A DNA stretch of 32,715 bases. It comes from an uncultured Pseudobdellovibrionaceae bacterium. GTDB lineage: Bacteria > Pseudomonadota > Alphaproteobacteria > Micavibrionales > Micavibrionaceae. Of the stretch, positions 1 through 31,350 are shown one piece after another; position 1 is the first letter of the stretch, and each line of letters opens with the position of its first letter. The DNA lies in contig CAYSGL010000001.1 of assembly GCA_964430725.1 (NCBI GenBank), positions 1 through 32,715 of the forward strand, read 5' to 3'. Under the pieces are notes generated by a model, which was not told the DNA's origin, did no database searches, and saw only the letters and a list, made by a program, of their open reading frames with translations. Both the position numbers and the translations under genes were made by a program.

Positions 1-8
1 TGTAGCGC

Positions 9-45
9 GACACATGGTTTGAGTACTCACGACAGATGGTTTGAG
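9..45. repeat. Two direct 15-bp repeats next to the terminal TG; candidate transposase end-binding sites (R1/R2-like)
   Basis: GACACATGGTTTGAG at 9-23 and GACAGATGGTTTGAG at 31-45 match at 14/15 positions and start 22 bp apart (two helical turns). They lie immediately inside the 5'-TG terminus. Confidence 0.6.
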
Positions 46-146
46 AATTAGCAAAAGCTAAAAAACCACCCTGTCGGACGCCCTACCTACCCCCTTTCCA
101 AGTCTAAAAGCCCGGTTTTCCAAGGCGTCAGAATATGAAAACGTCC

Positions 147-971
147 TCAAGCCTTGATCCCCTTTAATTTGACGTTGCTAATCAGCACTTCTCCAACCGG
201 CTTGGCATGGCCTCGGCCGGCCAGCGTATACAGTGTTTTCACTTTATATATATTGAAGCCCTTAAACAATTTTCGCACTTCAGGGCGGTCATTTAAGGAC
301 AAAATGAAGGTGCCTTTAATTCCCTTTAAAAGCTCTGCCATGGCGGTGAATTCGTCCCGGTTGAACAGCCCGTGTCCGTAGTCTCCTTCGTTTCCGTAAT
401 ATGGCGGATCAAGATAAAACAGGGTAGTATCCCGATCGTACCGTCTGATAAATTCCTTATAATCCAGACATTCAATGACCACGCCGGCAAGCCGTTCGTG
501 AACGTCCTCCAGCATGGGGATAAGCTTGGTGATGTTGAAACGGCCACCGCCGGTTACGTCAACGCCGAAATTCTTGCCCGATACTTTGCCACCGAAGGCA
601 AGGCGCTGCAGGTATAGGAATCGTGCCGCACGTTGCAAATCTGTCAGGGTGGTGGGATCTGTGATCGCCAGCCGCTCGAACTCAGCGCGGGTGGTCAGTT
701 TCCAGCGGATCAGCTCAATGAAGGGCAAATAATGGTGCTCCAGCACCCGAAAGAGATTGGCGACGTCCTTGCTGTAGTCATTGATTACTTCGGCTTTCGG
801 TCGGTGGTCGCGGCGCAGAAAAACACCGCCCATCCCGACAAAAGCCTCGCAATAAGTGGCGTGAGGAATGGTGTTGATATGCTGGATGATGGTTTTGGCG
901 AGATAGCGCTTGCCGCCGATATAGGGAGCAACAGGTTTGGTCGGGGTAACGGGTTGGAGAGCAGTTTTCAT
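147..971 (-). CDS. DNA adenine methyltransferase, D12/Dam family
   Basis: 274-aa ORF with the AdoMet motif EAFVGMGGVF (FxGxG) and the catalytic DPPY motif (FYLDPPYY). It is the last gene before the prophage end. Target specificity cannot be read from the sequence. Confidence 0.9.
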   Translation of the reverse strand: MKTALQPVTPTKPVAPYIGGKRYLAKTIIQHINTIPHATYCEAFVGMGGVFLRRDHRPKAEVINDYSKDVANLFRVLEHHYLPFIELIRWKLTTRAEFERLAITDPTTLTDLQRAARFLYLQRLAFGGKVSGKNFGVDVTGGGRFNITKLIPMLEDVHERLAGVVIECLDYKEFIRRYDRDTTLFYLDPPYYGNEGDYGHGLFNRDEFTAMAELLKGIKGTFILSLNDRPEVRKLFKGFNIYKVKTLYTLAGRGHAKPVGEVLISNVKLKGIKA

Positions 972-13133: not shown

Positions 13134-13762
13134 TCTTCGCTTTCCTCTTCTTCGGTTTCGAGTGCAACCGTATCGATTGCATCGGCGGTATCGTCTGCCG
13201 GCAGGCCTTGGGATGTGTCGACGTTGCCATGGGGCGGCAAATCCCAGTTCACATGAAAGGTTTCAAAATCGTCGAGATCATCAACAATATCGGATGTTTG
13301 CGTCTCAAATCCGGTTGTCAGTTCGACGCCATAGACGGAAACAAGCTGCTGGCCTGCTTTGTCATTGGTGATCGGCTGCACGCCCTGGGGAATGATGGGA
13401 TCGATATCGAGGCCGAATGTCTGATTGGCCACAAGGCCGATAACATCCTCGATAATCTGATAGCTACCGACTTTATCGCCTGATCCGTGCCGCGCGGCGG
13501 CTTCATTGCGCAGATTATTTGCGCCGCAGAATGCTACCCATCGGGCTGAGAACTTAACACGGCCGTTGGTGTGCGATAGGCGAGTGGCGCCGGCAAAGGC
13601 GACCAGAACGAAAGGAAACTGCCGACCGGAAACAGCTTTTTCCAGCCCGTCAGCAAACTCGCCGCCGTAAGTATCAATCTTTCTGAGCTGATAACCAAGG
13701 ATTTCATTGTCGTGCGCGGCGCGGATGCGATCAAGAAGAGCGTTTTCGATTTCAGGGATCAT
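13130..13762 (-). CDS. Mu gp37-like tail completion protein (DUF1834-like)
   Basis: 210 aa in the conserved position, with an acidic C-terminal tail. Confidence 0.8.
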   Translation of the reverse strand: MIPEIENALLDRIRAAHDNEILGYQLRKIDTYGGEFADGLEKAVSGRQFPFVLVAFAGATRLSHTNGRVKFSARWVAFCGANNLRNEAAARHGSGDKVGSYQIIEDVIGLVANQTFGLDIDPIIPQGVQPITNDKAGQQLVSVYGVELTTGFETQTSDIVDDLDDFETFHVNWDLPPHGNVDTSQGLPADDTADAIDTVALETEEEESEE

Positions 13763-14238
13763 TGCAGCATCCCTTTCATCCAGTCTTGCGCGGTCGCGTT
13801 GATCTCGGCGACATCCTCTGCGTTAATGCCGAGGTAAGGGCGCGCCGGGATGGTGACCTTGTCGGCGAACACCATGCCGTTCACACCTTTAAAGGCCAGT
13901 TTCTTCGCTGTCTTTGGACGGATCGTTCCACCGAGCTGGTGAATGCCGGCATCGATCCTGTTCGATCCCCATTCGACGCTGGAAGGATTGGTATTATGCG
14001 CCAGGGAAGAGAACAGCAGGCCTTTGTCTCGCAGCGTCTGACCGCCGCGTTCTCGGGCGCGCCGGCTTTTCTTCCAGGGCTGGCCATCCGGCCCGCGCTC
14101 ATCCAGGAAGCGCTGCTGCGTGGAAGATACGCCGTACGATCCGACCTGATCGAGCAGATCTCGACGTTCGGACGGATCGACGAATTTTTTGAAGGCTTTC
14201 ACCAGGTATTCATCACCTTTGACTTCAAGCGTGATCAT
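13759..14238 (-). CDS. Virion morphogenesis protein (Mu G / P2 S-like)
   Basis: 159 aa. The segment SSTQQRFLDERGPDGQPWKKS...GGQTLRDKGLL...IHQLGG is typical of the family. Confidence 0.8.
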   Translation of the reverse strand: MITLEVKGDEYLVKAFKKFVDPSERRDLLDQVGSYGVSSTQQRFLDERGPDGQPWKKSRRARERGGQTLRDKGLLFSSLAHNTNPSSVEWGSNRIDAGIHQLGGTIRPKTAKKLAFKGVNGMVFADKVTIPARPYLGINAEDVAEINATAQDWMKGMLQ

Positions 14239-16549: not shown

Positions 16550-17122
16550 TTAGGCAGCCTGTTCTTTCAGCGCTTCCTTCATGTCATCCGGCTTGAGACC
16601 GAGCTGGCTGGCGATCTCCAGCGCATCATCATCCAGTTCGCCCTGATTGGCTGGGCGTTCGCCGGTTTTGCTATTCGTGGCGGCGGCAATCACCGGAGCA
16701 GCTTCGATGAATTTTTTGAAGGCATCGGGATTCGAGCTGGCATAATCGAGCGCCCAGTCTTTTTGTGCGGGCGCGATCTTTCCGGCTTTCATGGCCTCGG
16801 CAACGGCAGTCTCTGCTTTGTCGGATGCCAGTGATTTTTGAACGCTGGCCAATTCAGCAGCGGTTTTGTTGAACATGTCCATCGGGACATATTCTTCGGG
16901 ATTGGGTTTTTTCGCGGTCGCCTGAATATCGGCAGCGGCGGTAGCAATTTCCTCGCCCTTGGCCTTTTCGTCCAGGCCCAGGGCTTTCGCCGCCGAAGCC
17001 AGGCTGGTTTGCGTTTCTTTCAGGGTAGCGGCGACTTCTTTGGCTTTGTCGACCACGGCCTGTTCATTTTCCGGCTTTTCAAGGCCGAGGGCAGATGCGA
17101 TTGCGAGTAGATATTTGTCCAT
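16550..17122 (-). CDS. Nested in-frame scaffold protein (Mu Z-like) from an internal start
   Basis: An in-frame ATG (Met161) at 17122 is preceded by GGAGG with an 8-nt spacer (GGAGGAAAACATCATG). It sits at the boundary between the protease-like and helical domains. Confidence 0.5.
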   Translation of the reverse strand: MDKYLLAIASALGLEKPENEQAVVDKAKEVAATLKETQTSLASAAKALGLDEKAKGEEIATAAADIQATAKKPNPEEYVPMDMFNKTAAELASVQKSLASDKAETAVAEAMKAGKIAPAQKDWALDYASSNPDAFKKFIEAAPVIAAATNSKTGERPANQGELDDDALEIASQLGLKPDDMKEALKEQAA

Positions 17123-17602
17123 GATGTTTTCCTCCATATCGTTGGACTGTTGAGACTGCGCTGAGGCGACAGCCTGCATTTCAAAATTGGGGGTATTGGT
17201 GAGTGAAGCGCGCAGAATGCGTGTTACTTCGCCGGTATCCTTGTCATGCCTGAAAACCGGCGAGATATAGCGATACTCTTTATCAGCCATTTCCTGGCGC
17301 GCCGCTGGCGTCCATTCAACATGCGCAAAAAGAGCGCCATCTTTTTCAACCAGTTTTTTAATCCAGCCTGCTGCTTTGACGCGTGTGCCCTTGGGGGCGA
17401 GATCAGTTTCATGGTCACGGTCGATCACCAGGTCAACCATGGGGCGGAGGCTTGCGGCGATGACGCCGGCAGGATTGGTGAGGTAATAAGGACCTCTCCC
17501 ATCAAAACCTTTCACTTCGCCGGCCGGAAAAATCGGAATAAGCGCGATATCATCTCCATCCGGCAATTTTACAAAGGTGTTTGCTTGCAAAAATTGTTTC
17601 AT
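16550..17602 (-). CDS. Head maturation protease/scaffold (Mu I-like)
   Basis: 350 aa. The N-terminal half (LIPIFPAGEVKGFDGRGPYYL...) resembles Mu I. The C-terminal half is Ala/Lys/Glu-rich and helical. There is no SD; CCTCC precedes the ATG. Confidence 0.85.
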   Translation of the reverse strand: MKQFLQANTFVKLPDGDDIALIPIFPAGEVKGFDGRGPYYLTNPAGVIAASLRPMVDLVIDRDHETDLAPKGTRVKAAGWIKKLVEKDGALFAHVEWTPAARQEMADKEYRYISPVFRHDKDTGEVTRILRASLTNTPNFEMQAVASAQSQQSNDMEENIMDKYLLAIASALGLEKPENEQAVVDKAKEVAATLKETQTSLASAAKALGLDEKAKGEEIATAAADIQATAKKPNPEEYVPMDMFNKTAAELASVQKSLASDKAETAVAEAMKAGKIAPAQKDWALDYASSNPDAFKKFIEAAPVIAAATNSKTGERPANQGELDDDALEIASQLGLKPDDMKEALKEQAA

Positions 17603-17637
17603 GGAGGCATGGTATGAGTATCAGCCCCATCAAATCA

Positions 17638-17655
17638 GTCGGACTATTGGCCTAC
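17638..17655. promoter_or_regulatory. Imperfect dyad GTAGGC-CAATAG-TCCGAC (read on the minus strand); candidate Mor/C-type activator site for the head operon
   Basis: It lies exactly 35 nt upstream of the I ATG (17602), the same spacing as the related perfect dyad upstream of lys. A -10-like TACCAT (17614-17609) would place +1 at the ATG. Confidence 0.45.
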
Positions 17656-17793
17656 CGCCCCCCTTGGAAGGCATGGGCTATACTCGTGTCATTGAAAACG
17701 GAGATATCTCGAAGACCGACCGATGGAGGCCGCCATGAAAAAGTAATCCGACCACATAATTTTCTATAACGTTTGAAAAATACAGATTTGCAT

Positions 17794-17820
17794 GGCCCGG
17801 AAGAAATCCGGGCCTTTTTC
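17794..17820 (+). terminator. Rho-independent terminator on the plus strand, opposite to all genes
   Basis: GGCCCGG-AAGAAAT-CCGGGCC is followed by TTTTT. On the minus strand there is no T-run after the hairpin. Confidence 0.6.
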
Positions 17821-18039
17821 ATGGCCGAACCCCCTTTTAAAAACCCCACAGCGCCTTCAAAAACGCCTCGGATTATTTTTCATGGGGAACGGGGGCGGCC
17901 AAGCCCTCTCAGCGCGCTCCTGAGGGCTTAAAAACAGAAATCAAAGATTGTTAACATAAGATTAAAAACGGGGGCGCTCAGGCTTGCTTTTTTCTGAAAA
18001 ATACAGGACAATGGAATTGTCGTGGTAGGAGCCTTACCT

Positions 18040-18096
18040 CCCTCAAAGCGACAAAACGGGCCGGCCAATCGTAAAGGGATGCCGGCCTATTTTTTT
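18040..18096. terminator. Bidirectional intrinsic terminator at the end of the F-like gene
   Basis: The stem is GGCCGGC (18059-18065) paired with GCCGGCC (18081-18087), with a 15-nt loop. On the minus strand it is followed by CGTTTTGTCGCTTTG, and on the plus strand by TATTTTTTT. Confidence 0.55.
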
Positions 18097-19349
18097 GTTC
18101 GGCGATAGGCAAGCGCTCCGGCGCGCTGGCGCAGCAGATAGCGAACATCGTCGGTCTTGAAGGTCGTCACCCCGTTCCAGCCGGATGGAGACACATCAAA
18201 CATCGTAAAGCCGCCCTCCGTGCCTTCATCACCCTGCCAGCGGGTGAGGTAGACACGGTTCAACGTCATACGGCCTTTGGGGTATTCCTGCCATGTCCAG
18301 AAAATTTCATCGGGATTTTTGATCGCGGCCGCCATAAGCAACAGATGACGATGCCGGCCCCGTTTCGTGGCCTTAAGCTGGCCGCCCGGCAATCTGAACA
18401 AATCATCCGATATAACAAGCTTTTCGCCAAGCGCATCGGTGAAAATGACGGGCTTGCCGATATCGCCGCCGAATTCTTTTAAAAACCGGCGGGCATATTC
18501 CTCTTCACTCAAACCGTCTGGCAACAGTGCATCTTTGGGAATGGGGCGCGGTGGCGGCATTGGCAGGTCAATCGGGTTGCCAGCGAACGGGATGTGCAGC
18601 GGACGGTCAAGATCCGGCCGGGCGAGCGCTTGCATGCGCGCTTTGCCGACATTGTAGGCAAAAGCCGGATCGATGCCTTGCGGCGCAACCATCGGCTGGC
18701 CGGTTTTTTTGTTGATATAGGTTTTGGGTGCATTGATCGGCGCTGCCGGGGCAGGTTTCAGCCCCAGCCTTTTCAGATCCCGATCGCTCAGCTGCTGCAC
18801 GGTGCAGCGGCAGCGCCATCCGTTCGGTGGATAATGATCATTCCAAAAGGGATCGTCGGCCGGCAGGACGGTGTTATGCCACTGACGGTGCTGGTGGCGG
18901 GTGCGTTCGTCAAGGATGGCGATGTAACGCAACCAGGGACGGGTTTTCTTGGTGCGCTGAACCTGTTCCCACCGGCCGGCGGCGTAAGCGGTACGCAAAT
19001 TGGTGTCATAAATAATTTTCAAGCGCCTGGTACTGCCGAGCTGCACGAGACGCTCTTCGCCGGTATTGGGATCAACCATTAGCTTTTTGCCCCACCATCC
19101 CTTGCTTTCAAGGGTGGGTTTAAGCTGTTTTTTAAACTCATTGAAAGTGATACCTTCAGCCACTGCCTGGTCAACGCTCTGGCGGATGTCCTGCAACAGA
19201 TCGATGGAGGTGGCCTTCGCCACGGTGAAATGATAGGCATGCTCTTCGCGCCACATCTCATGCCAGTCAAAGGTAACTTTATACCCTTTCTTGCGGAAAT
19301 AATCGATTGCTTCCTTCGGCGGCTGTGGCTTGAGATCGATTTTGGCCAT
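18087..19349 (-). CDS. Head morphogenesis protein (Mu F / gp30-like, SPP1 gp7 family)
   Basis: 420 aa containing HYPPNGWRCRCTV, typical of the Mu F family. It lies downstream of the portal gene. Confidence 0.9.
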   Translation of the reverse strand: MAKIDLKPQPPKEAIDYFRKKGYKVTFDWHEMWREEHAYHFTVAKATSIDLLQDIRQSVDQAVAEGITFNEFKKQLKPTLESKGWWGKKLMVDPNTGEERLVQLGSTRRLKIIYDTNLRTAYAAGRWEQVQRTKKTRPWLRYIAILDERTRHQHRQWHNTVLPADDPFWNDHYPPNGWRCRCTVQQLSDRDLKRLGLKPAPAAPINAPKTYINKKTGQPMVAPQGIDPAFAYNVGKARMQALARPDLDRPLHIPFAGNPIDLPMPPPRPIPKDALLPDGLSEEEYARRFLKEFGGDIGKPVIFTDALGEKLVISDDLFRLPGGQLKATKRGRHRHLLLMAAAIKNPDEIFWTWQEYPKGRMTLNRVYLTRWQGDEGTEGGFTMFDVSPSGWNGVTTFKTDDVRYLLRQRAGALAYRRTKK

Positions 19350-19355
19350 ATCGGA

Positions 19356-19490
19356 TTATCCTGCAATCGTTAAGGCCAGAGCGACAACGGATACGCAAAT
19401 TAAAATCCCTCCCCATCCTGCCAATAAGTAGCCAAAGGCAGCGGCGGCGACTAAAGAAGAGAAAATTATATTAAACCCGAATTCTCTCAT
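19356..19490 (-). CDS. Possible 44-aa hydrophobic mini-protein
   Basis: Hand translation gives MREFGFNIIFSSLVAAAAFGYLLAGWGGILICVSVVALALTIAG. It fills the otherwise unexplained 144-nt gap between the portal and F genes. The SD is weak and the ORF is below the track's size cut-off. Confidence 0.3.
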   Translation of the reverse strand: MREFGFNIIFSSLVAAAAFGYLLAGWGGILICVSVVALALTIAG

Positions 19491-19493
19491 GCT

Positions 19494-21044
19494 TCATTCA
19501 TCCAGATCGATTTCAAGATTGCCGGCGACCCGTGCTTTGAATCCCATGCGCGCCAGTTGATTGGCCAGATTGTTCATATCGATCTCGCCGGCAAGCGTTA
19601 AAAGCTTTTGACGAAAATCGTCAAAGTCTTCGCTCTGATCGGCGGCTTCTTCGAGCAGGTTTACGATCGGATTCATAATTTCTTCGAAATCGCCCTCGAT
19701 CTCATCGATGGCCTGATCAATCGCATCTTTATCTGTGTTGGGCCGCGCGGAGGCCAGCGATGTATTCTCTGGCGGGTTATTGACAGGAGCGGACGCTGCC
19801 GGTTTTTGCAGGATATCATTATCATCGACCGGCGCGGGAAGTCCTAGCTTTTCACGCAGCTTCGATGAGCTGATTTTAAGGCCGATATTAACGGCACGCT
19901 CGGCTGTCATGGAGAGCTTGTCGCTGTCGATCTGCTCCGATCGGCCGATCCGCAGGCGCGGGTAGCGTTTTTGCTCCCCATAATTTAAATCGATCATCGG
20001 CCGGATGAGTTGTTCATTCAGCGTGGCGGCAAGCTGACGGGCATCGGCGCGCTCAATGTCTTCCCGCACCTCATTGTGTTCTTTCGACACGGCATGGCCG
20101 CCGGAAATCGCATCAACCGTGGTTGTCTGCCCAAGAACGGCTTTGGAGATCTGCTGATCGCAGAATTTACACAGGCGGTCGAAAACATCGGCTGTATTGG
20201 TTTTGCCGGCCGCCTCGATAAATTCGATTTGCATGGACTCTGGAATAATGGCGGCCGCATCCGAGCCGATCTGTGCAACGGCGCGACGGAGAACATCTTT
20301 ATCCGCCTTGCTTGCGCCCGGTCCGTATTTACCCATGCGGATTGGCTGGCCATAGGCTTCGGCAAAGATTACCCAGTCCTTGATGCTGAAATTCTTGAAC
20401 AGCCACATCCACGCGCACGGCCGGATAATGCCTCCACGGACAGTGATACCGGATTTTGCCTTGTGGCGATGTACGATGAATTTATATGGTGCCAGGGGAA
20501 CGGGAATATTATCGTCGCCCTTCATCATCAGTGTTTCCCGATCGGTGCGGTCAAATTCAAACCATCGGGGATCGCGCCATTTCAAATCTTTGGGCAGCCA
20601 GATGCTGTCATTGACATCCCAGAGAATTTCGACGACTGAATAGCCCTTCCCAATTGCATCGAGAATATCAAAAATTTCTGTTTCCAGATGATCGCGGCGC
20701 AACCAATCCTCGATCAACTGGGCGTTGCGCACATCCACATCATTCTCACTCGCGGGTTCGACGGTGATCTCCAACTGCGATACGGCGCGTTTGCGTGTGC
20801 CGATCACTGCAAGGTAGTGCGTGTCTTTCTCCTCGATCTCTTCAGCCATCTCCAGATAGGCTGTCGCATCATTATCCTCCGTTGCGCGCAGGATGCGTGC
20901 CAGGCGACCCGGATTAAGGCCGGTAGTTTGCTCGGCTGTTAAAAAGCTGCGGACACCCGTAATACTGGGCGTGGCCTGTTCTTCCAATAGCTCCGATCGG
21001 CGCAGCGGGTTCCCGTATTGATCGACGAGTTTTGTCATTACCAT
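19494..21044 (-). CDS. Portal protein (Mu gp29-like, DUF935-like)
   Basis: 516 aa with portal-like sequence, positioned after the large terminase and overlapping its stop. Confidence 0.9.
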   Translation of the reverse strand: MVMTKLVDQYGNPLRRSELLEEQATPSITGVRSFLTAEQTTGLNPGRLARILRATEDNDATAYLEMAEEIEEKDTHYLAVIGTRKRAVSQLEITVEPASENDVDVRNAQLIEDWLRRDHLETEIFDILDAIGKGYSVVEILWDVNDSIWLPKDLKWRDPRWFEFDRTDRETLMMKGDDNIPVPLAPYKFIVHRHKAKSGITVRGGIIRPCAWMWLFKNFSIKDWVIFAEAYGQPIRMGKYGPGASKADKDVLRRAVAQIGSDAAAIIPESMQIEFIEAAGKTNTADVFDRLCKFCDQQISKAVLGQTTTVDAISGGHAVSKEHNEVREDIERADARQLAATLNEQLIRPMIDLNYGEQKRYPRLRIGRSEQIDSDKLSMTAERAVNIGLKISSSKLREKLGLPAPVDDNDILQKPAASAPVNNPPENTSLASARPNTDKDAIDQAIDEIEGDFEEIMNPIVNLLEEAADQSEDFDDFRQKLLTLAGEIDMNNLANQLARMGFKARVAGNLEIDLDE

Positions 21045-24966: not shown

Positions 24967-25578
24967 TCACGAGTAAGCCCGATTGAGCCAGCCTTTAAGA
25001 TATTTGCGCGAGGCTGGACGACGCGCTGCCAATTGGCGGTAGAATCCGGCCGCTTCCGATCGCAAGGCGGCCAGAAGAGCGGGCGTATAGCTTTTGTTGG
25101 ATAAAGAGATGGTTTGCTGTCCTATAATCCCGTCTTCGGATACCGCTTCCTTGGTGACAGCGCGCAACGCACGCTGAAGAAGAATGTGGGCCTGCTTTGG
25201 CCCCATGTTCACGCCAAAATCGAAAACTTTCATCGCAATGGCAGGTGCCAGAGCCTCATAGGGATAAGGGTCCCAAAAACGCAGGCGGTAGATACGGATG
25301 GCATCCTCGGCCTTAATGCGGCGCATATCGCGCTCGTCAATCAATCCGTCCTTGTTCAGATCGAGGTCAAGTTCCCCGTCACCATCGAGATCACCCAATT
25401 CTTTGGCCAGGCGCAGTGAAATGCCATTTTTTGTAGCGCCTCCGGGATCGTCAGGATCGTTCGACCATAATCCTTCATGTTGCAAGGTGATTTTGATCGC
25501 CTGATCGAAAACAGAGTTTTCGGTCGGCGGCAATGTTTCGAAGCGCTTGGGCTTGCTGTCTTTCCCCCAGTTCGTCAT
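24967..25578 (-). CDS. Endolysin, GH108-type lysozyme domain with a C-terminal peptidoglycan-binding-like region
   Basis: 203 aa. HEGLWSNDPDDPGGATKNGIS matches the GH108 catalytic motif (EGG..DP.D.GG.T..GI), and the C-terminus reads YLKGWLNRAYS. There is no signal or SAR sequence. The ATG has no SD. Confidence 0.85.
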   Translation of the reverse strand: MTNWGKDSKPKRFETLPPTENSVFDQAIKITLQHEGLWSNDPDDPGGATKNGISLRLAKELGDLDGDGELDLDLNKDGLIDERDMRRIKAEDAIRIYRLRFWDPYPYEALAPAIAMKVFDFGVNMGPKQAHILLQRALRAVTKEAVSEDGIIGQQTISLSNKSYTPALLAALRSEAAGFYRQLAARRPASRKYLKGWLNRAYS

Positions 25579-25613
25579 GGGAGAATGATCGGATATATTC
25601 GTGAGGAAAATTA

Positions 25614-25631
25614 GTAGGCCTTCTTGCCTAC
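25614..25631. promoter_or_regulatory. Perfect dyad GTAGGC-N6-GCCTAC; candidate Mor/C-type activator site for the lysis/late operon
   Basis: It overlaps the mor-like stop codon and lies exactly 35 nt upstream of the lys ATG (25578). A -10-like GATCAT (25590-25585) would place +1 at the ATG. Confidence 0.5.
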
Positions 25632-26011
25632 AGGTCGAGATTTAATTGATTGCTGTTTTCTTCTTCATTAACGATCCGCCGTACCTGGCGAATGGAAATG
25701 CGCAAATTCGCTGAAATTCGCACAACCGGCATCCCATCACGGTGCATACGCAATATCCTAGCTTTTCGTCCGGCCTTGACCGGCACCTCAAAATGCATGC
25801 CACCGTAAATCTGACCGATTTTTTTCGCCGCGTCCAGCCCCAGACAAACAGCCAGCGGGGAAGCGGGACCTGGATTAGCCGGAATGTAAAGGCGGCGGCC
25901 GCCCAATTCTTCACTCAGCTGAAGAAATCCATCCTCGCCGATAATTTTCTCTAAACTGGCGATTGTTGGTGTTTCCGACAGGTTATCGAGATCAATCGCA
26001 TCAAAAGTCAT
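25628..26011 (-). CDS. mor: Mor/C-family late transcription activator
   Basis: 127 aa from the ATG at 26011 (the track ORF extends to 26164). GGRRLYIP and the C-terminal HTH (VVRISANLRISIRQVRRIV) parallel Mu Mor. It lies downstream of gemA, as in Mu. Confidence 0.8.
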   Translation of the reverse strand: MTFDAIDLDNLSETPTIASLEKIIGEDGFLQLSEELGGRRLYIPANPGPASPLAVCLGLDAAKKIGQIYGGMHFEVPVKAGRKARILRMHRDGMPVVRISANLRISIRQVRRIVNEEENSNQLNLDL

Positions 26012-26447
26012 TGGGATTTCCCCCCACACGACTGATCCACCCGCGCAAACCTTTAATAACCTTGTTTGCGTCCGCTGGCGTGATCCAATGCAGATCATCG
26101 ATGCCGCACATGCGCTTGACATACGAGGCGAGCGCTTCTTCGCTGGAATCGGATAATTGATCAAGGTTTTTTAGTTGAAGCCACAGCGCCCTGATTTTAC
26201 GCGCCTGCGGTTCATCGGCCATTCTCTTCTTGCCGGAGGCTTTCGGGCGGTGCTTTCCGGAAAAACCGAGCCGGGCAAATTCTCTGACAACGCTTTCAAG
26301 CTGCCGCTCTGACATATCGGCGCTGCTCTCGATCCCCGTAATGCGGCGCAGGACGTCGCGATAATTCTCATCGGTTAAAGCGAGCTGCTTTTTAGCGACG
26401 TGAATTTTCGCGATCAAACCTTTGCGCGTGTTACGGGCTGCCTGCAT
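26001..26447 (-). CDS. gemA: GemA-like protein (Mu gp16, DUF1018-like)
   Basis: 148 aa. KIHVAKKQLALTDENYRDVLRRITGIESSADMSERQLESVVREFARLGF is typical of GemA. Confidence 0.8.
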   Translation of the reverse strand: MQAARNTRKGLIAKIHVAKKQLALTDENYRDVLRRITGIESSADMSERQLESVVREFARLGFSGKHRPKASGKKRMADEPQARKIRALWLQLKNLDQLSDSSEEALASYVKRMCGIDDLHWITPADANKVIKGLRGWISRVGGNPNDF

Positions 26448-29160: not shown

Positions 29161-31350
29161 TTAGGTGGGAAGTGGTACGCCGTTTACGTCGTCATGGTTT
29201 TTACGCATTTGCTCGAATTCGCGCCGTGCGTGGTACCAGGATTGCTGCTCTACCCATCCGAACCATTTGGCATCGGCTGAATTAAGCGTCTCTCCGGCAG
29301 CGCGGCGCGTTTCGATATCCTGGGCACGCGCCCACCAGCGTTCTTCATCGCTGAGTTCTTTGGGTGCGTTTTTCTGCTCCAGAAATTCTTTACGGAATTT
29401 GTCCAGATCGAGATCGTAGACGCTCGATGTGGAATCCACGGCTTTGGCGGCTTCGCTCAAGCCTTCATTTTGATAGCTTTCCGATTGTTTGGGAAAGGCG
29501 GTCAGCGTTCCCTTGTCTTTCGCTGCAATGCCCAGGTAATCGTCGGCCATCTTCGCCGGTGTCAGCTTTCTCATTTCACGGCGCAACGGCTCGATCCGCT
29601 CTTTTTCAAAGTCTTTTTGAGCTTTTTTCGCTTGGGCGGCGGCGGCCACAGGATCAACGCCGGCGCGATCGAAGCAACGCGCCTCGCTGATAAATTTGCC
29701 GTCTTCATCGAAGCAGTAAATAACACCCATATCTTCGGGATTGCAGCGCACCAGCACGCGCTTGCCAACATAGGGGATCAGGCCGCCATCGAAGAAACTG
29801 CCACCATCGAGACGGATACCTTTCTTGCCGATCGTACGGAAACCGCCGTTGCCGGCAACCGGTGCCAGCAAGAGATCGAGCGCGCGCGGGTTTTCAATTT
29901 TCTTAATCGGCGCTGTCCAGCTCATGGCTTTGAGCCATGGTGTCTGTCCGCCAAGTCCGCCATGTTGCTTGTGCAGATATTTATTTTCGACCCACTGGTC
30001 GATCTTGCCTTGCAGATCCGTGTGCGAGAGTTCAACGGCAAAGGATTTTTCAGCATTTTCGCCAAGTCGTGCGGCAAAAGCGCGACGGCTTTCGATTTCC
30101 TTGCGATCCTTGACAGAGTGGCCGATATAACCCGGTAAAAGAGGCATTAAATCATGCTGTAATGTATGGAATGAACGCTCGATAAAGGGTTTTTTCTCCC
30201 CGCTGAATGGCGGGCAGACATCCTGATAGATACCAAGCGCCAGCAATGCGCCCATGAAGCGCTGCGAGGTGAAGTCTGAACCGTTATCGGTGCGGATGGA
30301 TTCCGGCACACCCCATTCGAGGATCGCTTTACGGATCAGGACCAGCGCGGCTTCAGTACGCGGCGTTTTCGTGACCATATACATGGCGCGGCGCGACCAG
30401 ACATCGATAATGCCGTAAAGTGAATAGCGTCCATCCTGGCAGAGAACGTCTGCCGGCGATGCGTCGATCTCCCAAAGCTGGTTCAGGCGCTCAATGCCGG
30501 CATCGGCTTTGCCGAGTCCGAGCTGGAATTTGTTCTTGTGACCGTCGGGATTGGTCAGGCGCTCGTGCATTTCGCCGTTTTCAGCGCGCCATTCGCACAT
30601 GAAACGCTCGAAGGTGCGCACATGCGGCAGGTCTTTTTCTTCGCGCCGGCCGCGCGCATCTTTTACCATGACGGTTTCGCCAAATTTGGCACGGCACAAA
30701 TCGCGCATGTGACCGCCGTTCAAGTGCGGTTGTTTGAGCATAAGGGCAATGATGTATTGTCTCAGCTCCCCGTCTTCGGCGCGCTCGATCACGCCGCTGC
30801 CTTTACGGTTGCCATAGCGACCGCCAAGGGCTTTAAAAGCGTCCTCTTCGCGGCGGATGCGACGCCACCGGCGCAGGGATTGAATGCTGAATTCAGGATA
30901 GATATCGAATACCCATGCCGGCACCATCGAGCTGTGACCGCAGGCCCGTTCCTTTGCATAGAATTTCAGAAATGGCCGTTCGGCCTTTTGAATGGTCAGG
31001 CAGGTTGTCTCGCGGAACTGATCGAATAGCTGGACAATGATCAGTTTGGCATTGCGGCGCTCGGCGGCGTTGTAGGTGGGTGTGCCGGGCTTTTCCAGCT
31101 CCATATAACGCGCAGGGTTGGATGCCAGTGCATCGAGGGCAGCCGGGCCGACCTGTTTTTCGATCAGCTCCATCTGCGCCGCCTCCGGCAGTGCGCTGAC
31201 ATGATATTCCAGTCCGCCGCCGACACCGTAACGCGGCCGGCATTTCCAATTTTCCTTTTTGGCTTTCTCGTTGATGCGAAAGCGAGACGAGGGCAAGCTG
31301 GATAGCTGAAGGTCGGCCAAATTTTGCGGGGTAAACCACTCGGAAATCAT
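29161..31350 (-). CDS. MuA-like DDE transposase
   Basis: 729 aa. It has an N-terminal Mu-type HTH (WFTPQNLADL...KENWKCRPRYGVGGGLEYHVSALP) and an rve-type core (WEIDASPADV, IRTDNGSDFTS). Confidence 0.95.
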   Translation of the reverse strand: MISEWFTPQNLADLQLSSLPSSRFRINEKAKKENWKCRPRYGVGGGLEYHVSALPEAAQMELIEKQVGPAALDALASNPARYMELEKPGTPTYNAAERRNAKLIIVQLFDQFRETTCLTIQKAERPFLKFYAKERACGHSSMVPAWVFDIYPEFSIQSLRRWRRIRREEDAFKALGGRYGNRKGSGVIERAEDGELRQYIIALMLKQPHLNGGHMRDLCRAKFGETVMVKDARGRREEKDLPHVRTFERFMCEWRAENGEMHERLTNPDGHKNKFQLGLGKADAGIERLNQLWEIDASPADVLCQDGRYSLYGIIDVWSRRAMYMVTKTPRTEAALVLIRKAILEWGVPESIRTDNGSDFTSQRFMGALLALGIYQDVCPPFSGEKKPFIERSFHTLQHDLMPLLPGYIGHSVKDRKEIESRRAFAARLGENAEKSFAVELSHTDLQGKIDQWVENKYLHKQHGGLGGQTPWLKAMSWTAPIKKIENPRALDLLLAPVAGNGGFRTIGKKGIRLDGGSFFDGGLIPYVGKRVLVRCNPEDMGVIYCFDEDGKFISEARCFDRAGVDPVAAAAQAKKAQKDFEKERIEPLRREMRKLTPAKMADDYLGIAAKDKGTLTAFPKQSESYQNEGLSEAAKAVDSTSSVYDLDLDKFRKEFLEQKNAPKELSDEERWWARAQDIETRRAAGETLNSADAKWFGWVEQQSWYHARREFEQMRKNHDDVNGVPLPT

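What the first reader, a model, noticed from the sequence alone, without database searches (positions are those of the whole stretch)
17603..17655. Second copy of the dyad at the identical 35-nt spacing upstream of the SD-less head-operon gene I
The minus strand reads GTAGGC-CAATAG-TCCGAC (17655-17638), then 35 nt, then the I ATG (17602). This matches 10 of the 12 half-site positions of the lys dyad, with the same N6 spacer and exactly the same distance to the start codon. At the position equivalent to the lys -10-like GATCAT there is TACCAT (17614-17609). The last 15 nt before both ATGs agree at 10 of 15 positions and end in C-rich CTCCC or CCTCC rather than an SD. Mu has a C-dependent promoter (PI) in front of gene I. 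Two operon-initial genes sharing dyad, spacing, -10-like element and lack of an SD is hard to explain by chance. The half-sites here pair poorly as RNA, which favours a protein-binding site over a hairpin.
Basis: partly seen in the sequence, partly recalled or inferred. Interest (0 to 1): 0.65.

Follow-up and report, generated by a model that had tools for sequence, protein, structure and literature searches.

The report
Leaderless late promoter before head gene I
The repeated dyad in front of head gene I is most likely the binding site of the phage's own Mor/C-type late activator, in a promoter placed so that transcription should begin at the ATG itself, a layout shared by many Mu-like phages.

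Summary
On the minus strand, GTAGGC-CAATAG-TCCGAC (17655-17638) lies 35 nt before the gene I ATG (17602). It matches the lys dyad (25631-25614) at 10 of 12 half-site positions with identical spacing. Both genes lack a Shine-Dalgarno sequence.

Relatives decide the interpretation. Three phages with about 50% identical I proteins carry seven promoters with the same layout. Each has T(A/C)GG-N8-C(C/T)(G/T)A-CT, exactly 34 nt, then ATG, with a -10-like hexamer at -12..-7 counted from the A. More distant phages use other palindromes. Each has its own palindrome both just after its Mor/C gene and before I, and the palindrome class follows the activator's recognition helix.

Of 208 non-redundant I upstream regions, 53 have a strong palindrome centred 43-48 nt before the first ATG. 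Control genes have 0-3.

The site is therefore the PI-type late promoter of a Mu-like transposable phage. It has a 16-bp dyad centred near -44.5, a -10 hexamer TACCAT and no -35. Its geometry predicts leaderless lys and I mRNAs, whereas Mu has annotated ribosome-binding sites before both genes. Activator binding and the start site are inferred; no RNA data exist.

The parts
17639..17654 (-). 16-bp imperfect dyad TAGG-CCAATAGT-CCGA, the proposed activator site of the I promoter. Its centre is 44.5 nt upstream of the A of the I ATG.
   Evidence: The same T(A/C)GG-N8-CC(G/T)A core occurs in L088, L089 and L090 at identical spacing.
17633..17638 (-). CTGATT directly downstream of the dyad, at -36..-31. 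C, T and A are conserved in all seven class A sites. It is a poor -35 (3 of 6 matches to TTGACA with an 18-bp spacer).
   Evidence: In Mu the bases just downstream of the dyad are needed for activation (PMC2582627).
17609..17614 (-). -10-like hexamer TACCAT, at -12..-7 from the A of the ATG and 32.5 nt from the dyad centre.
   Evidence: 32-32.5 nt is the modal distance from dyad centre to -10-like hexamer in 53 palindrome-bearing I promoters.
17603..17608 (-). 6-nt C-rich stretch GCCTCC between the -10 hexamer and the ATG (discriminator position). It is not an SD.
   Evidence: L088 and L089 have the identical GCCTCC; L090 has GCCCCT.
17600..17602 (-). ATG of gene I and predicted transcription start (A at 17602).
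   Evidence: It is the first start codon after an in-frame stop 18 nt upstream. The ATG sits exactly 34 nt after the CT of the dyad in seven promoters.
16550..17602 (-). Gene I, the Mu-like head protease/scaffold. It is the first gene of the head-tail operon.
   Evidence: Pfam Mu-like_Pro, E = 1e-75.
25615..25630 (-). lys-promoter copy of the dyad, TAGG-CAAGAAGG-CCTA. It overlaps the stop codon of the activator gene and may also act as a weak terminator hairpin.
25585..25590 (-). -10-like hexamer GATCAT of the lys promoter, at -12..-7 from the lys ATG at 25578.
24967..25578 (-). lys, an endolysin (GH108 plus a peptidoglycan-binding domain). It has no SD and is the first gene of the lysis/terminase/portal/F operon.
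25628..26011 (-). Gene for the Mor/C-family activator (127 aa). It has a C-terminal HTH (LRISIRQVRR) and ends in QLNLDL, which resembles a clamp-binding motif.
   Evidence: Pfam Mor 24.4 bits against a cut-off of 24.9; 68 of 80 homologues match Mor. hhalign against Mu C gives 95% probability, E = 3.6e-8. The family profile hits PDB 'Late transcription activator C', E = 8e-5.
18060..18086 (-). Stem-loop starting at the F stop codon, followed by CCGUUUUGUCGCUUUG. It is a candidate weak terminator of the lys operon.
   Evidence: -18.3 kcal/mol, but z = -0.5.
74..89 (-). Third copy of the dyad core, TAGG-TAGGGCGT-CCGA. It has no gene downstream, and whether it belongs to the system is uncertain.

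Best explanation
The dyad at 17654-17639 is the binding site of the phage's single Mor/C-family activator, encoded at 25628-26011 as the last gene of the early operon. Together with the -10 hexamer TACCAT (17614-17609) it forms the PI-type late promoter of a Mu-like transposable phage. There is no usable -35, so host sigma-70 RNA polymerase should need the activator, bound about 44.5 bp upstream and overlapping the -35 region as in Mu.

The -10 hexamer lies exactly at -12..-7 from the A of the I start codon. Transcription is therefore predicted to start at that A, or within 1-2 nt of it, giving a leaderless mRNA for I and the head-tail genes behind it. That would explain the missing SD. The lys promoter (dyad 25630-25615, -10 at 25590-25585, ATG at 25578) is built the same way.

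Shown here: the sequence anatomy, its conservation, and its co-variation with the activator. Inferred: activator binding, activator dependence and the start site.
For: 1. Anatomy and statistics in the window.
- The anatomy is as described in the observation check.

2. Seven promoters in three phages share the layout.
- They are window lys and I, L088 lys and I, L089 I, and L090 first late gene and I.
- All have T(A/C)GG-N8-C(C/T)(G/T)A-CT, then exactly 34 nt, then ATG.
- The hexamers TACCAT, GATCAT, AATACT, CATTAT, TATACT and TAACAT all sit at -12..-7.
- The downstream genes are not homologous to one another: GH108 lysin, PF00959 lysozyme and a 37-aa ORF.

3. Phages with other palindromes repeat them at both places.
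- L092, L183 and L185 have TGTAAC-N4-GTTACAATGCC before both lys and I.
- L103, L051, L078, L048, L201 and others repeat their own palindrome 7-9.5 kb upstream of I.

4. Co-variation with the activator.
- The ORF ending 0-26 nt before the lys-side copy is a Mor/C-like protein.
- Its recognition helix differs by dyad class: LRISIRxVR, VGVSRSxxYR or LGxTETGxDKxF.

5. Survey of 208 non-redundant I upstream regions.
- 62% lack an SD at the first ATG, against 9-26% for the T, portal, F and sheath genes.
- 47 have a -10-like hexamer correctly placed, against 1-2 in the controls.
- 53 of 82 strong palindromes are centred 43-48 nt before the ATG, against 0-3 in the controls.
- The -10-like hexamers peak 32-32.5 nt from the palindrome centre, on the gene strand only.

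6. The activator belongs to the Mor/C family.

7. Agreement with published Mu biology.
- Mu C binds a 16-bp imperfect dyad centred at -43.5, and its late promoters have a -10 but no -35 (PMC2582627).
- Mu has annotated late promoters directly before lys and I.
Against: - No transcript data exist for this phage. The only runs holding it are DNA from a sludge metagenome. The attempt on a Micavibrio relative gave only contigs.
- The -10 hexamers are weak: 4 of 6 matches to TATAAT.
- The I dyad is imperfect. Its left half is TAGG, but its right half is the complement of TCGG.
- The dyad centre lies at -44.5 if transcription starts at the A. Mu's lies at -43.5, so the true start could be 1 nt upstream.
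- The host is uncultured, so its ability to translate leaderless mRNA is unknown.
- In many distant relatives the lys-side copy lies about 87-94 nt from the next ORF. Leaderless lys is therefore not general.
- The consensus promoter scan found no sigma-70 promoter here. That is expected for a promoter without a -35, but it is not positive evidence.
Confidence: 0.7

Rival explanations
1. It is an activator-dependent late promoter, but transcription starts elsewhere. The I and lys mRNAs would then carry a short SD-less leader translated by an SD-independent route, rather than being leaderless.
For: The start site is not mapped. The -10 hexamers match TATAAT at only 4 of 6 positions. Mu's own late transcripts have ribosome-binding sites annotated between the promoter and the start codon. 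In 53 surveyed relatives the distance from dyad centre to ATG varies from 43 to 48 nt.
Against: The spacing from dyad to ATG is identical to the nucleotide in seven promoters that precede non-homologous genes. The -10-like hexamers sit at a fixed 32-32.5 nt from the dyad centre and 6-8 nt before the ATG. That leaves room for a leader of at most about 2 nt.
Confidence: 0.17
2. The dyads act as RNA hairpins (terminator, attenuator or processing site) on transcripts reading through from upstream, and are not DNA sites for a protein.
For: The lys copy folds to -9.5 kcal/mol and is followed by UAAUUUU. In L103, L150 and L120 the palindrome is followed by a T-run. Mu has predicted terminators next to both late promoters.
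Against: The I copy does not fold (z = +0.75). Many relatives have perfect 18-bp palindromes with spacers of 0-2 nt, which suits a symmetric protein better than a hairpin loop. The position is fixed relative to the -10 hexamer and the ATG. The sequence co-varies with the activator helix.
Confidence: 0.05
3. The dyad is an operator for a repressor or another DNA-binding protein, such as the immunity repressor, the transposase, or a nucleoid or gyrase-related factor. It would not be an activator site.
For: Sequence alone cannot tell activation from repression. A third copy lies next to the transposase-binding end repeats.
Against: There is no -35, so a repressor would have nothing to repress. 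The site sits where Mu C binds. It always follows the Mor/C gene and co-varies with that protein's helix.
Confidence: 0.04
4. The resemblance is chance, or is imposed by the plus-strand ORF 17614-17769. That ORF has a GGAGG 6 nt before its ATG, and the dyad encodes its residues VGLLAY.
For: Matches with 2 or fewer mismatches are not rare in the window as a whole. The plus-strand ORF has a canonical SD and is followed by a strong terminator.
Against: The expected number of matches at that offset is about 0.002. The motif is conserved in relatives. The ORF has no homologue in 247 related loci.
Confidence: 0.03

Closest known systems
Phage Mu late promoters PI and Plys, activated by the C protein
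   Same: Both sit directly before the lys and I operons. Both have a -10 but no -35. Both have a 16-bp imperfect dyad overlapping the -35 region, centred at -43.5 in Mu and about -44.5 here. In both, the bases just downstream of the dyad are conserved or important. Both activators belong to the Mor/C family and have a clamp-binding-like C-terminus.
   Different: The half-sites are T(A/C)GG-N8-CC(G/T)A here, not TTAT-N5-6-ATAA. Mu has ribosome-binding sites annotated between the promoters and the lys and I start codons, whereas here the ATG sits at the predicted +1. Only one Mor/C gene was found here, where Mu has two (Mor and C). No P-type or mom-type promoter was found here.
Mu middle promoter Pm, activated by Mor
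   Same: A dyad site overlaps the -35 region and is bound by a Mor/C-family protein that recruits sigma-70 RNA polymerase. By synteny the window's activator sits at the Mor position, directly after gemA.
   Different: Pm drives the middle operon that encodes C. Here the activator gene is followed at once by lys, so the cascade seems to have two tiers rather than three.
Leaderless phage mRNAs such as lambda cI from PRM (from general knowledge, not tested here)
   Same: The start codon is at the 5' end of the transcript, there is no SD, and the start codon is AUG.
   Different: The lambda example is a lysogeny repressor gene expressed at a low level. Here the leaderless genes would open the large, highly expressed lysis and head-tail operons, under an activator-dependent promoter.

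Membership tests
Mor/C-dependent late promoter (Mu Plys/PI type) | Imperfect dyad of about 16 bp overlapping the -35 region, centred near -43.5 | tested here: inconclusive
   The 16-bp dyad is present. Its centre is at -44.5 if +1 is the A of the ATG. The start site is not mapped, so the coordinate is a prediction.
Mor/C-dependent late promoter (Mu Plys/PI type) | Recognisable -10 hexamer but no recognisable -35 hexamer | tested here: met
   TACCAT and GATCAT have A2 and T6. The -35 region is TGATTT or CTGATT, at most 3 of 6 matches. The consensus scan finds no complete sigma-70 promoter.
Mor/C-dependent late promoter (Mu Plys/PI type) | Located directly before the lys operon and before gene I | tested here: met
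   (Mu annotation for comparison).
Mor/C-dependent late promoter (Mu Plys/PI type) | The phage encodes a Mor/C-family activator | tested here: met
   The window protein scores 24.4 bits against a Pfam Mor cut-off of 24.9. However, 68 of 80 of its homologues match Mor (best E = 2.4e-15). hhalign against Mu C gives 95% probability, E = 3.6e-8. The family profile hits PDB chains of Mu C (E = 8e-5) and Mor (E = 0.06).
Mor/C-dependent late promoter (Mu Plys/PI type) | Mu C recognition sequence TTAT-N5-6-ATAA | tested here: not met
   The half-sites are TAGG and CCGA or CCTA with an 8-bp spacer (consensus from PMC12867686). The specificity differs, as expected for a distant family member.
Mor/C-dependent late promoter (Mu Plys/PI type) | Activator binds the dyad, and transcription depends on it | not testable with these tools
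   Only indirect evidence: the dyad class co-varies with the recognition helix across phages.
Leaderless mRNA | Transcript 5' end coincides with the A of the start codon | not testable with these tools
   No RNA runs hold this phage. Runs for a relative gave only contigs.
Leaderless mRNA | AUG start codon, with no SD and no room for a leader after the -10 hexamer | tested here: met
   The start is ATG. Anti-SD energies are +0.6 and +0.3 kcal/mol. The -10 hexamer ends 6 nt before the A in all seven class A promoters.

The most novel reading that the evidence does not exclude
The activator site, the -10 hexamer and the ATG form one fused promoter/start-codon module, so the whole head-tail operon mRNA, and here also the lysis operon mRNA, is leaderless. 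This module would be widespread: about a quarter of 208 surveyed I genes have it. It also appears before I in cultured phages such as Alteromonadaceae B23, Ralstonia RS138 and Pseudomonas JBD26. In this phage the same near-palindromic site may also fire a divergent, terminator-bounded RNA of about 130 nt.
Probability: 0.5. Interest if true: 0.6.

Novelty: new variant of a known kind. Interest (0 to 1): 0.5.

Why it matters
A late promoter before gene I in a Mu-like phage is expected, so the bare finding is ordinary. Three things are new.

1. A different recognition sequence for a Mor/C-family activator. There is also a table of dyad classes that follow recognition-helix classes across phages. 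This is a starting point for a binding code and for orthogonal activator-promoter pairs.

2. A promoter geometry that places the start codon at +1. It is kept to the nucleotide in front of unrelated genes and recurs in about a quarter of surveyed Mu-like phages. If confirmed, major late operons of a large phage group would be translated without an SD. I found no report of this in the held literature.

3. A practical annotation rule. Gene callers that expect an SD can misplace the I start. In L092 the I start was called 27 nt too far downstream.

Tried and rejected
- DNA similarity to known phages: no match.
- First genome scan, with the single I protein: nothing. Alignment-based scans then worked.
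- Rfam and tRNA scans: nothing at gathering score. Only sub-threshold hits, driven by the plus-strand terminator hairpin.
- Population variation: six other contigs from the same study are 100% identical, so they are uninformative.
- RNA evidence: the phage occurs only in DNA runs from a sludge metagenome. Runs found with a Micavibrio relative (L182) gave only contigs about 91% identical, with no start-site information.
- A P-type or mom-type late promoter of the same class: none found in the window, L088 or L090. The region before the methyltransferase gene holds only a half-site.
- Divergent promoters as a general feature of these palindromes: rejected. There is no enrichment of -10-like hexamers on the opposite strand in 53 promoters.
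- The plus-strand ORF 17614-17769 as a conserved gene: rejected. It has no homologue in 247 loci.
- A word-indexed protein search with the activator found only one relative. The full HMMER search found 1143.
- I could not rebuild the exact Mu dyad coordinates from the Mu sequence, so the published values are cited instead.

Full report
**What the window is**

All long genes lie on the minus strand and give a Mu-like order:
- transposase A, 29161-31350
- an AAA+ B-like protein
- DUF3164
- GemA, 26001-26447
- a small HTH protein
- lys, 24967-25578 (GH108)
- gp27
- large terminase
- portal
- F, 18087-19349
- a 484-nt gap
- I, 16550-17602
- major head protein T
- sheath, tube and baseplate genes
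- a D12-class adenine methyltransferase, 147-971

Window position 1 is the phage's right end (...CGCGCTACA). Other assemblies from the same sludge-metagenome study continue from that base into three unrelated flanks. This is therefore an actively transposing phage. The closest I proteins are only about 53% identical. The nearest named relatives are in Micavibrio and other Alphaproteobacteria.

**The observation**

One count is off: the last 15 nt before the two ATGs agree at 9 positions, not 10.

Of 41 genes, lys and I are the clearest SD-less ones. Their anti-SD duplex energies are +0.3 and +0.6 kcal/mol; most others lie between -4 and -12. The I ATG is the first possible start after an in-frame stop 18 nt upstream.

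The dyad match by itself could be chance. Three sites in the window match the lys dyad with 2 or fewer mismatches. At the fixed offset from a gene start, however, I scores 10 of 12 and no other gene exceeds 6. About 0.002 such matches are expected.

**Close relatives**

Contigs that encode I proteins about 50% identical to the window's keep the same gene order. They also keep a non-coding F-I gap of 345-400 nt.

In L088, L089 and L090 the regions before I, and before the first gene after the Mor-like gene, read T(A/C)GG-N8-C(C/T)(G/T)A-CT. Exactly 34 nt follow, then ATG. The two window promoters read the same way.

At -12..-7 from the A of the ATG all seven promoters have a hexamer with A at position 2 and T at position 6. 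The hexamers are TACCAT, GATCAT, AATACT, CATTAT, TATACT and TAACAT.

The genes behind these promoters are not homologous to one another. They are a GH108 lysin, a PF00959 lysozyme, a 37-aa ORF and I. Inheritance of a leader sequence therefore cannot explain the fixed distance from promoter to ATG.

Its flanks are asymmetric: a C after the left half, and CT-A after the right half.

**Other palindromes, same places**

L092, L183 and L185 have TGTAAC-N4-GTTACAATGCC before both lys and I. It lies 37 nt before the ATG. For L092 I, that ATG is an in-frame one 27 nt upstream of the called start.

Many more distant phages repeat the palindrome found before I at a point 7-9.5 kb upstream, just after a small ORF. 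That ORF is a Mor/C-like protein each time. It has a C-terminal HTH and a tail such as QLCLF, QLDLF, QLSLF or QPDLF. These tails fit the clamp-binding motif reported for the Mor/C family (PMC12867686). The window's protein ends in QLNLDL.

The recognition helix follows the dyad class:

| Dyad class | Recognition helix |
|---|---|
| T(A/C)GG-N8-CC(G/T)A | L(R/H)(I/L)SIRxVR |
| TGTAAC-N4-GTTACA | (V/I)G(V/T)(S/D)RSxxYR |
| GCCCGCC-N2-GGCGGGC | LGxTETGxDKxF |

This co-variation is the strongest indirect evidence that the dyad is this protein's binding site.

**The activator**

The window's activator is a 127-aa protein encoded at 25631-26011.
- It scores just under the Pfam Mor cut-off: 24.4 against 24.9 bits.
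- A full HMMER search found 1143 relatives.
- 68 of 80 of those relatives match Mor.
- The family profile aligns with Mu C at 95% probability, E = 3.6e-8.
- The profile finds the solved Mu C and Mor chains.

No second Mor-like gene turned up among the ORFs scanned. The gene sits at the Mor position, after gemA, and is followed directly by lys. This suggests a two-step early-to-late cascade (inference).

**Survey**

I collected 247 related loci and dereplicated the upstream regions.

| Gene | n | First ATG without SD | -10-like hexamer correctly placed | Strong palindromes | Of those, centred 43-48 nt before the ATG |
|---|---|---|---|---|---|
| I | 208 | 62% | 47 | 82 | 53 |
| T | 173 | 13% | 1 | 31 | 3 |
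| portal | 122 | 10% | 1 | 26 | 3 |
| F | 84 | 26% | 2 | 11 | 2 |
| sheath | 45 | 9% | 1 | 11 | 0 |

For I the palindrome centres peak at -45.5 and -46.5. In those 53 promoters the -10-like hexamers cluster 32-32.5 nt from the palindrome centre, on the gene strand only. Both window promoters have the hexamer at exactly 32.5 nt.

Cultured phages show the same SD-less I start with a hexamer 6-7 nt upstream:
- Alteromonadaceae B23: TAGTCT-GGCGGC-ATG, with the dyad centre at -44.5
- Ralstonia RS138
- Pseudomonas JBD26

**Mechanism**

Published work on Mu shows the following.
- C binds a 16-bp imperfect dyad centred at -43.5 that overlaps the -35 region.
- The late promoters have a -10 but no -35.
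- The bases just downstream of the dyad matter for activation (PMC2582627).
- C and Mor contact RNA polymerase (bioRxiv 10.1101/2025.05.02.651988).
- C needs the sliding clamp (PMC12867686).

The window's I and lys promoters fit this pattern, with one difference. In Mu, ribosome-binding sites are annotated between the late promoters and the lys and I start codons. Here the -10 hexamer ends 6 nt before the A of the ATG, so +1 should be that A.

I rate the site as a Mor/C-type late promoter at about 0.85-0.9. I rate the transcript as leaderless, meaning a leader of 0-2 nt, at about 0.65. Nothing here shows binding or the start site directly.

**Read-through**

F is followed by a stem-loop with a U-rich tail (18086-18060). 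It is thermodynamically unremarkable. Read-through from the lys operon into I cannot be excluded. It would add to PI rather than replace it.

**Novelty**

The site is a new member of the known class of Mu late promoters. It has a new recognition sequence and a variant, leaderless geometry. I found no description of that geometry in the held literature.

Noticed in passing
window 74-89 (minus strand), context 30-100: A third copy of the dyad core (GGTAGG-TAGGGCGT-CCGACA) lies 57 nt after the methyltransferase stop codon. A -10-like TAATTC/AATTCT sits at the usual distance. The predicted start would fall at about position 39, inside the first of two end repeats, with no phage gene downstream. 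It could be an outward-reading late promoter, an activator site with another role near the phage end, or chance (about 0.1 expected).
   Followed up: partly
window 1-45 (minus strand); L175, L179, L181: Position 1 is the phage right end (...GTGTCGCGCTACA). Two direct repeats, CTCAAACCAT(C/G)TGTCG at 45-30 and 23-8, look like transposase-binding sites. Contigs from the same study continue into three unrelated flanks, so the phage is transposing. The other window end (32715) is not the left end.
   Followed up: yes
window 17679-17684 and 17691-17820 (plus strand): On the opposite strand a 5-of-6 -10 hexamer, TATACT, lies at the mirror-image 32.5 nt from the I dyad centre. This predicts a plus-strand start at 17691. 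A strong plus-strand terminator (17794-17814, -18.4 kcal/mol, z = -3.8, then TTTTT) follows about 105 nt later. Together they would give a divergent RNA of about 130 nt containing a GGAGG-ATG-AAA-AAG-TAA mini-ORF. This is not a general feature of related promoters.
   Followed up: partly
window 17794-17824; L088 9596-9635, and the same place in L089 and L090: The hairpin AAAAAGGCCCG...CGGGCC-ATG is conserved. In L088, L089 and L090 it follows the F stop codon directly. In the window it lies about 270 nt further on, so 17815-18086 looks like an insertion. That stretch contains another stem-loop at 17929-17901. On the gene strand the hairpin has an A-run before it and no U-run after it, so it reads as a terminator only for the opposite strand.
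   Followed up: partly
window 17603-18086: Gene G is missing from the F-I interval. Its homologue (PF05069) lies at 13759-14238, between the gp36 and gp37 homologues. In Mu the G-I gap holds the strong gyrase site and a terminator. Whether this conserved non-coding gap of 345-484 nt plays a similar role is unknown.
   Followed up: no
window 19362-19496 (minus strand): A 44-codon ORF fills the portal-F gap. It encodes a very hydrophobic peptide, MREFGFNIIFSSLVAAAAFGYLLAGWGGILICVSVVALALTIAG. In L088 and L092 portal and F abut, and the ORF is absent. It looks like a small membrane-protein moron.
   Followed up: no
window 147-971 (minus strand): The last gene before the right end is a D12-class N6-adenine DNA methyltransferase. 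Mu carries mom at this position. It has a weak SD (-1.0 kcal/mol) and no class A promoter upstream, only a CCGAC half-site.
   Followed up: partly
L088 9890-9910: About 50 nt upstream of its functional-looking I dyad, L088 has a degenerate copy, TCTCGCCAATATCCCGCC. Its CAATA spacer matches the window and L090 I sites. This suggests a local duplication, and that the I promoters share common descent.
   Followed up: no
L092 9974 versus 10001: The I start of L092 was called 27 nt downstream of the in-frame ATG that fits the promoter geometry. That ATG lies 37 nt after the dyad, the same distance as at that phage's lys gene. Gene callers probably misplace SD-less I starts.
   Followed up: partly
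L090 10059-10078: A perfect class A palindrome, AATCGG-ATTTAATC-CCGATT, lies inside the I coding region, 58 nt after the ATG. It encodes the conserved SDLIPIFPAG motif. It is probably a by-product of coding and was not examined further.
   Followed up: no
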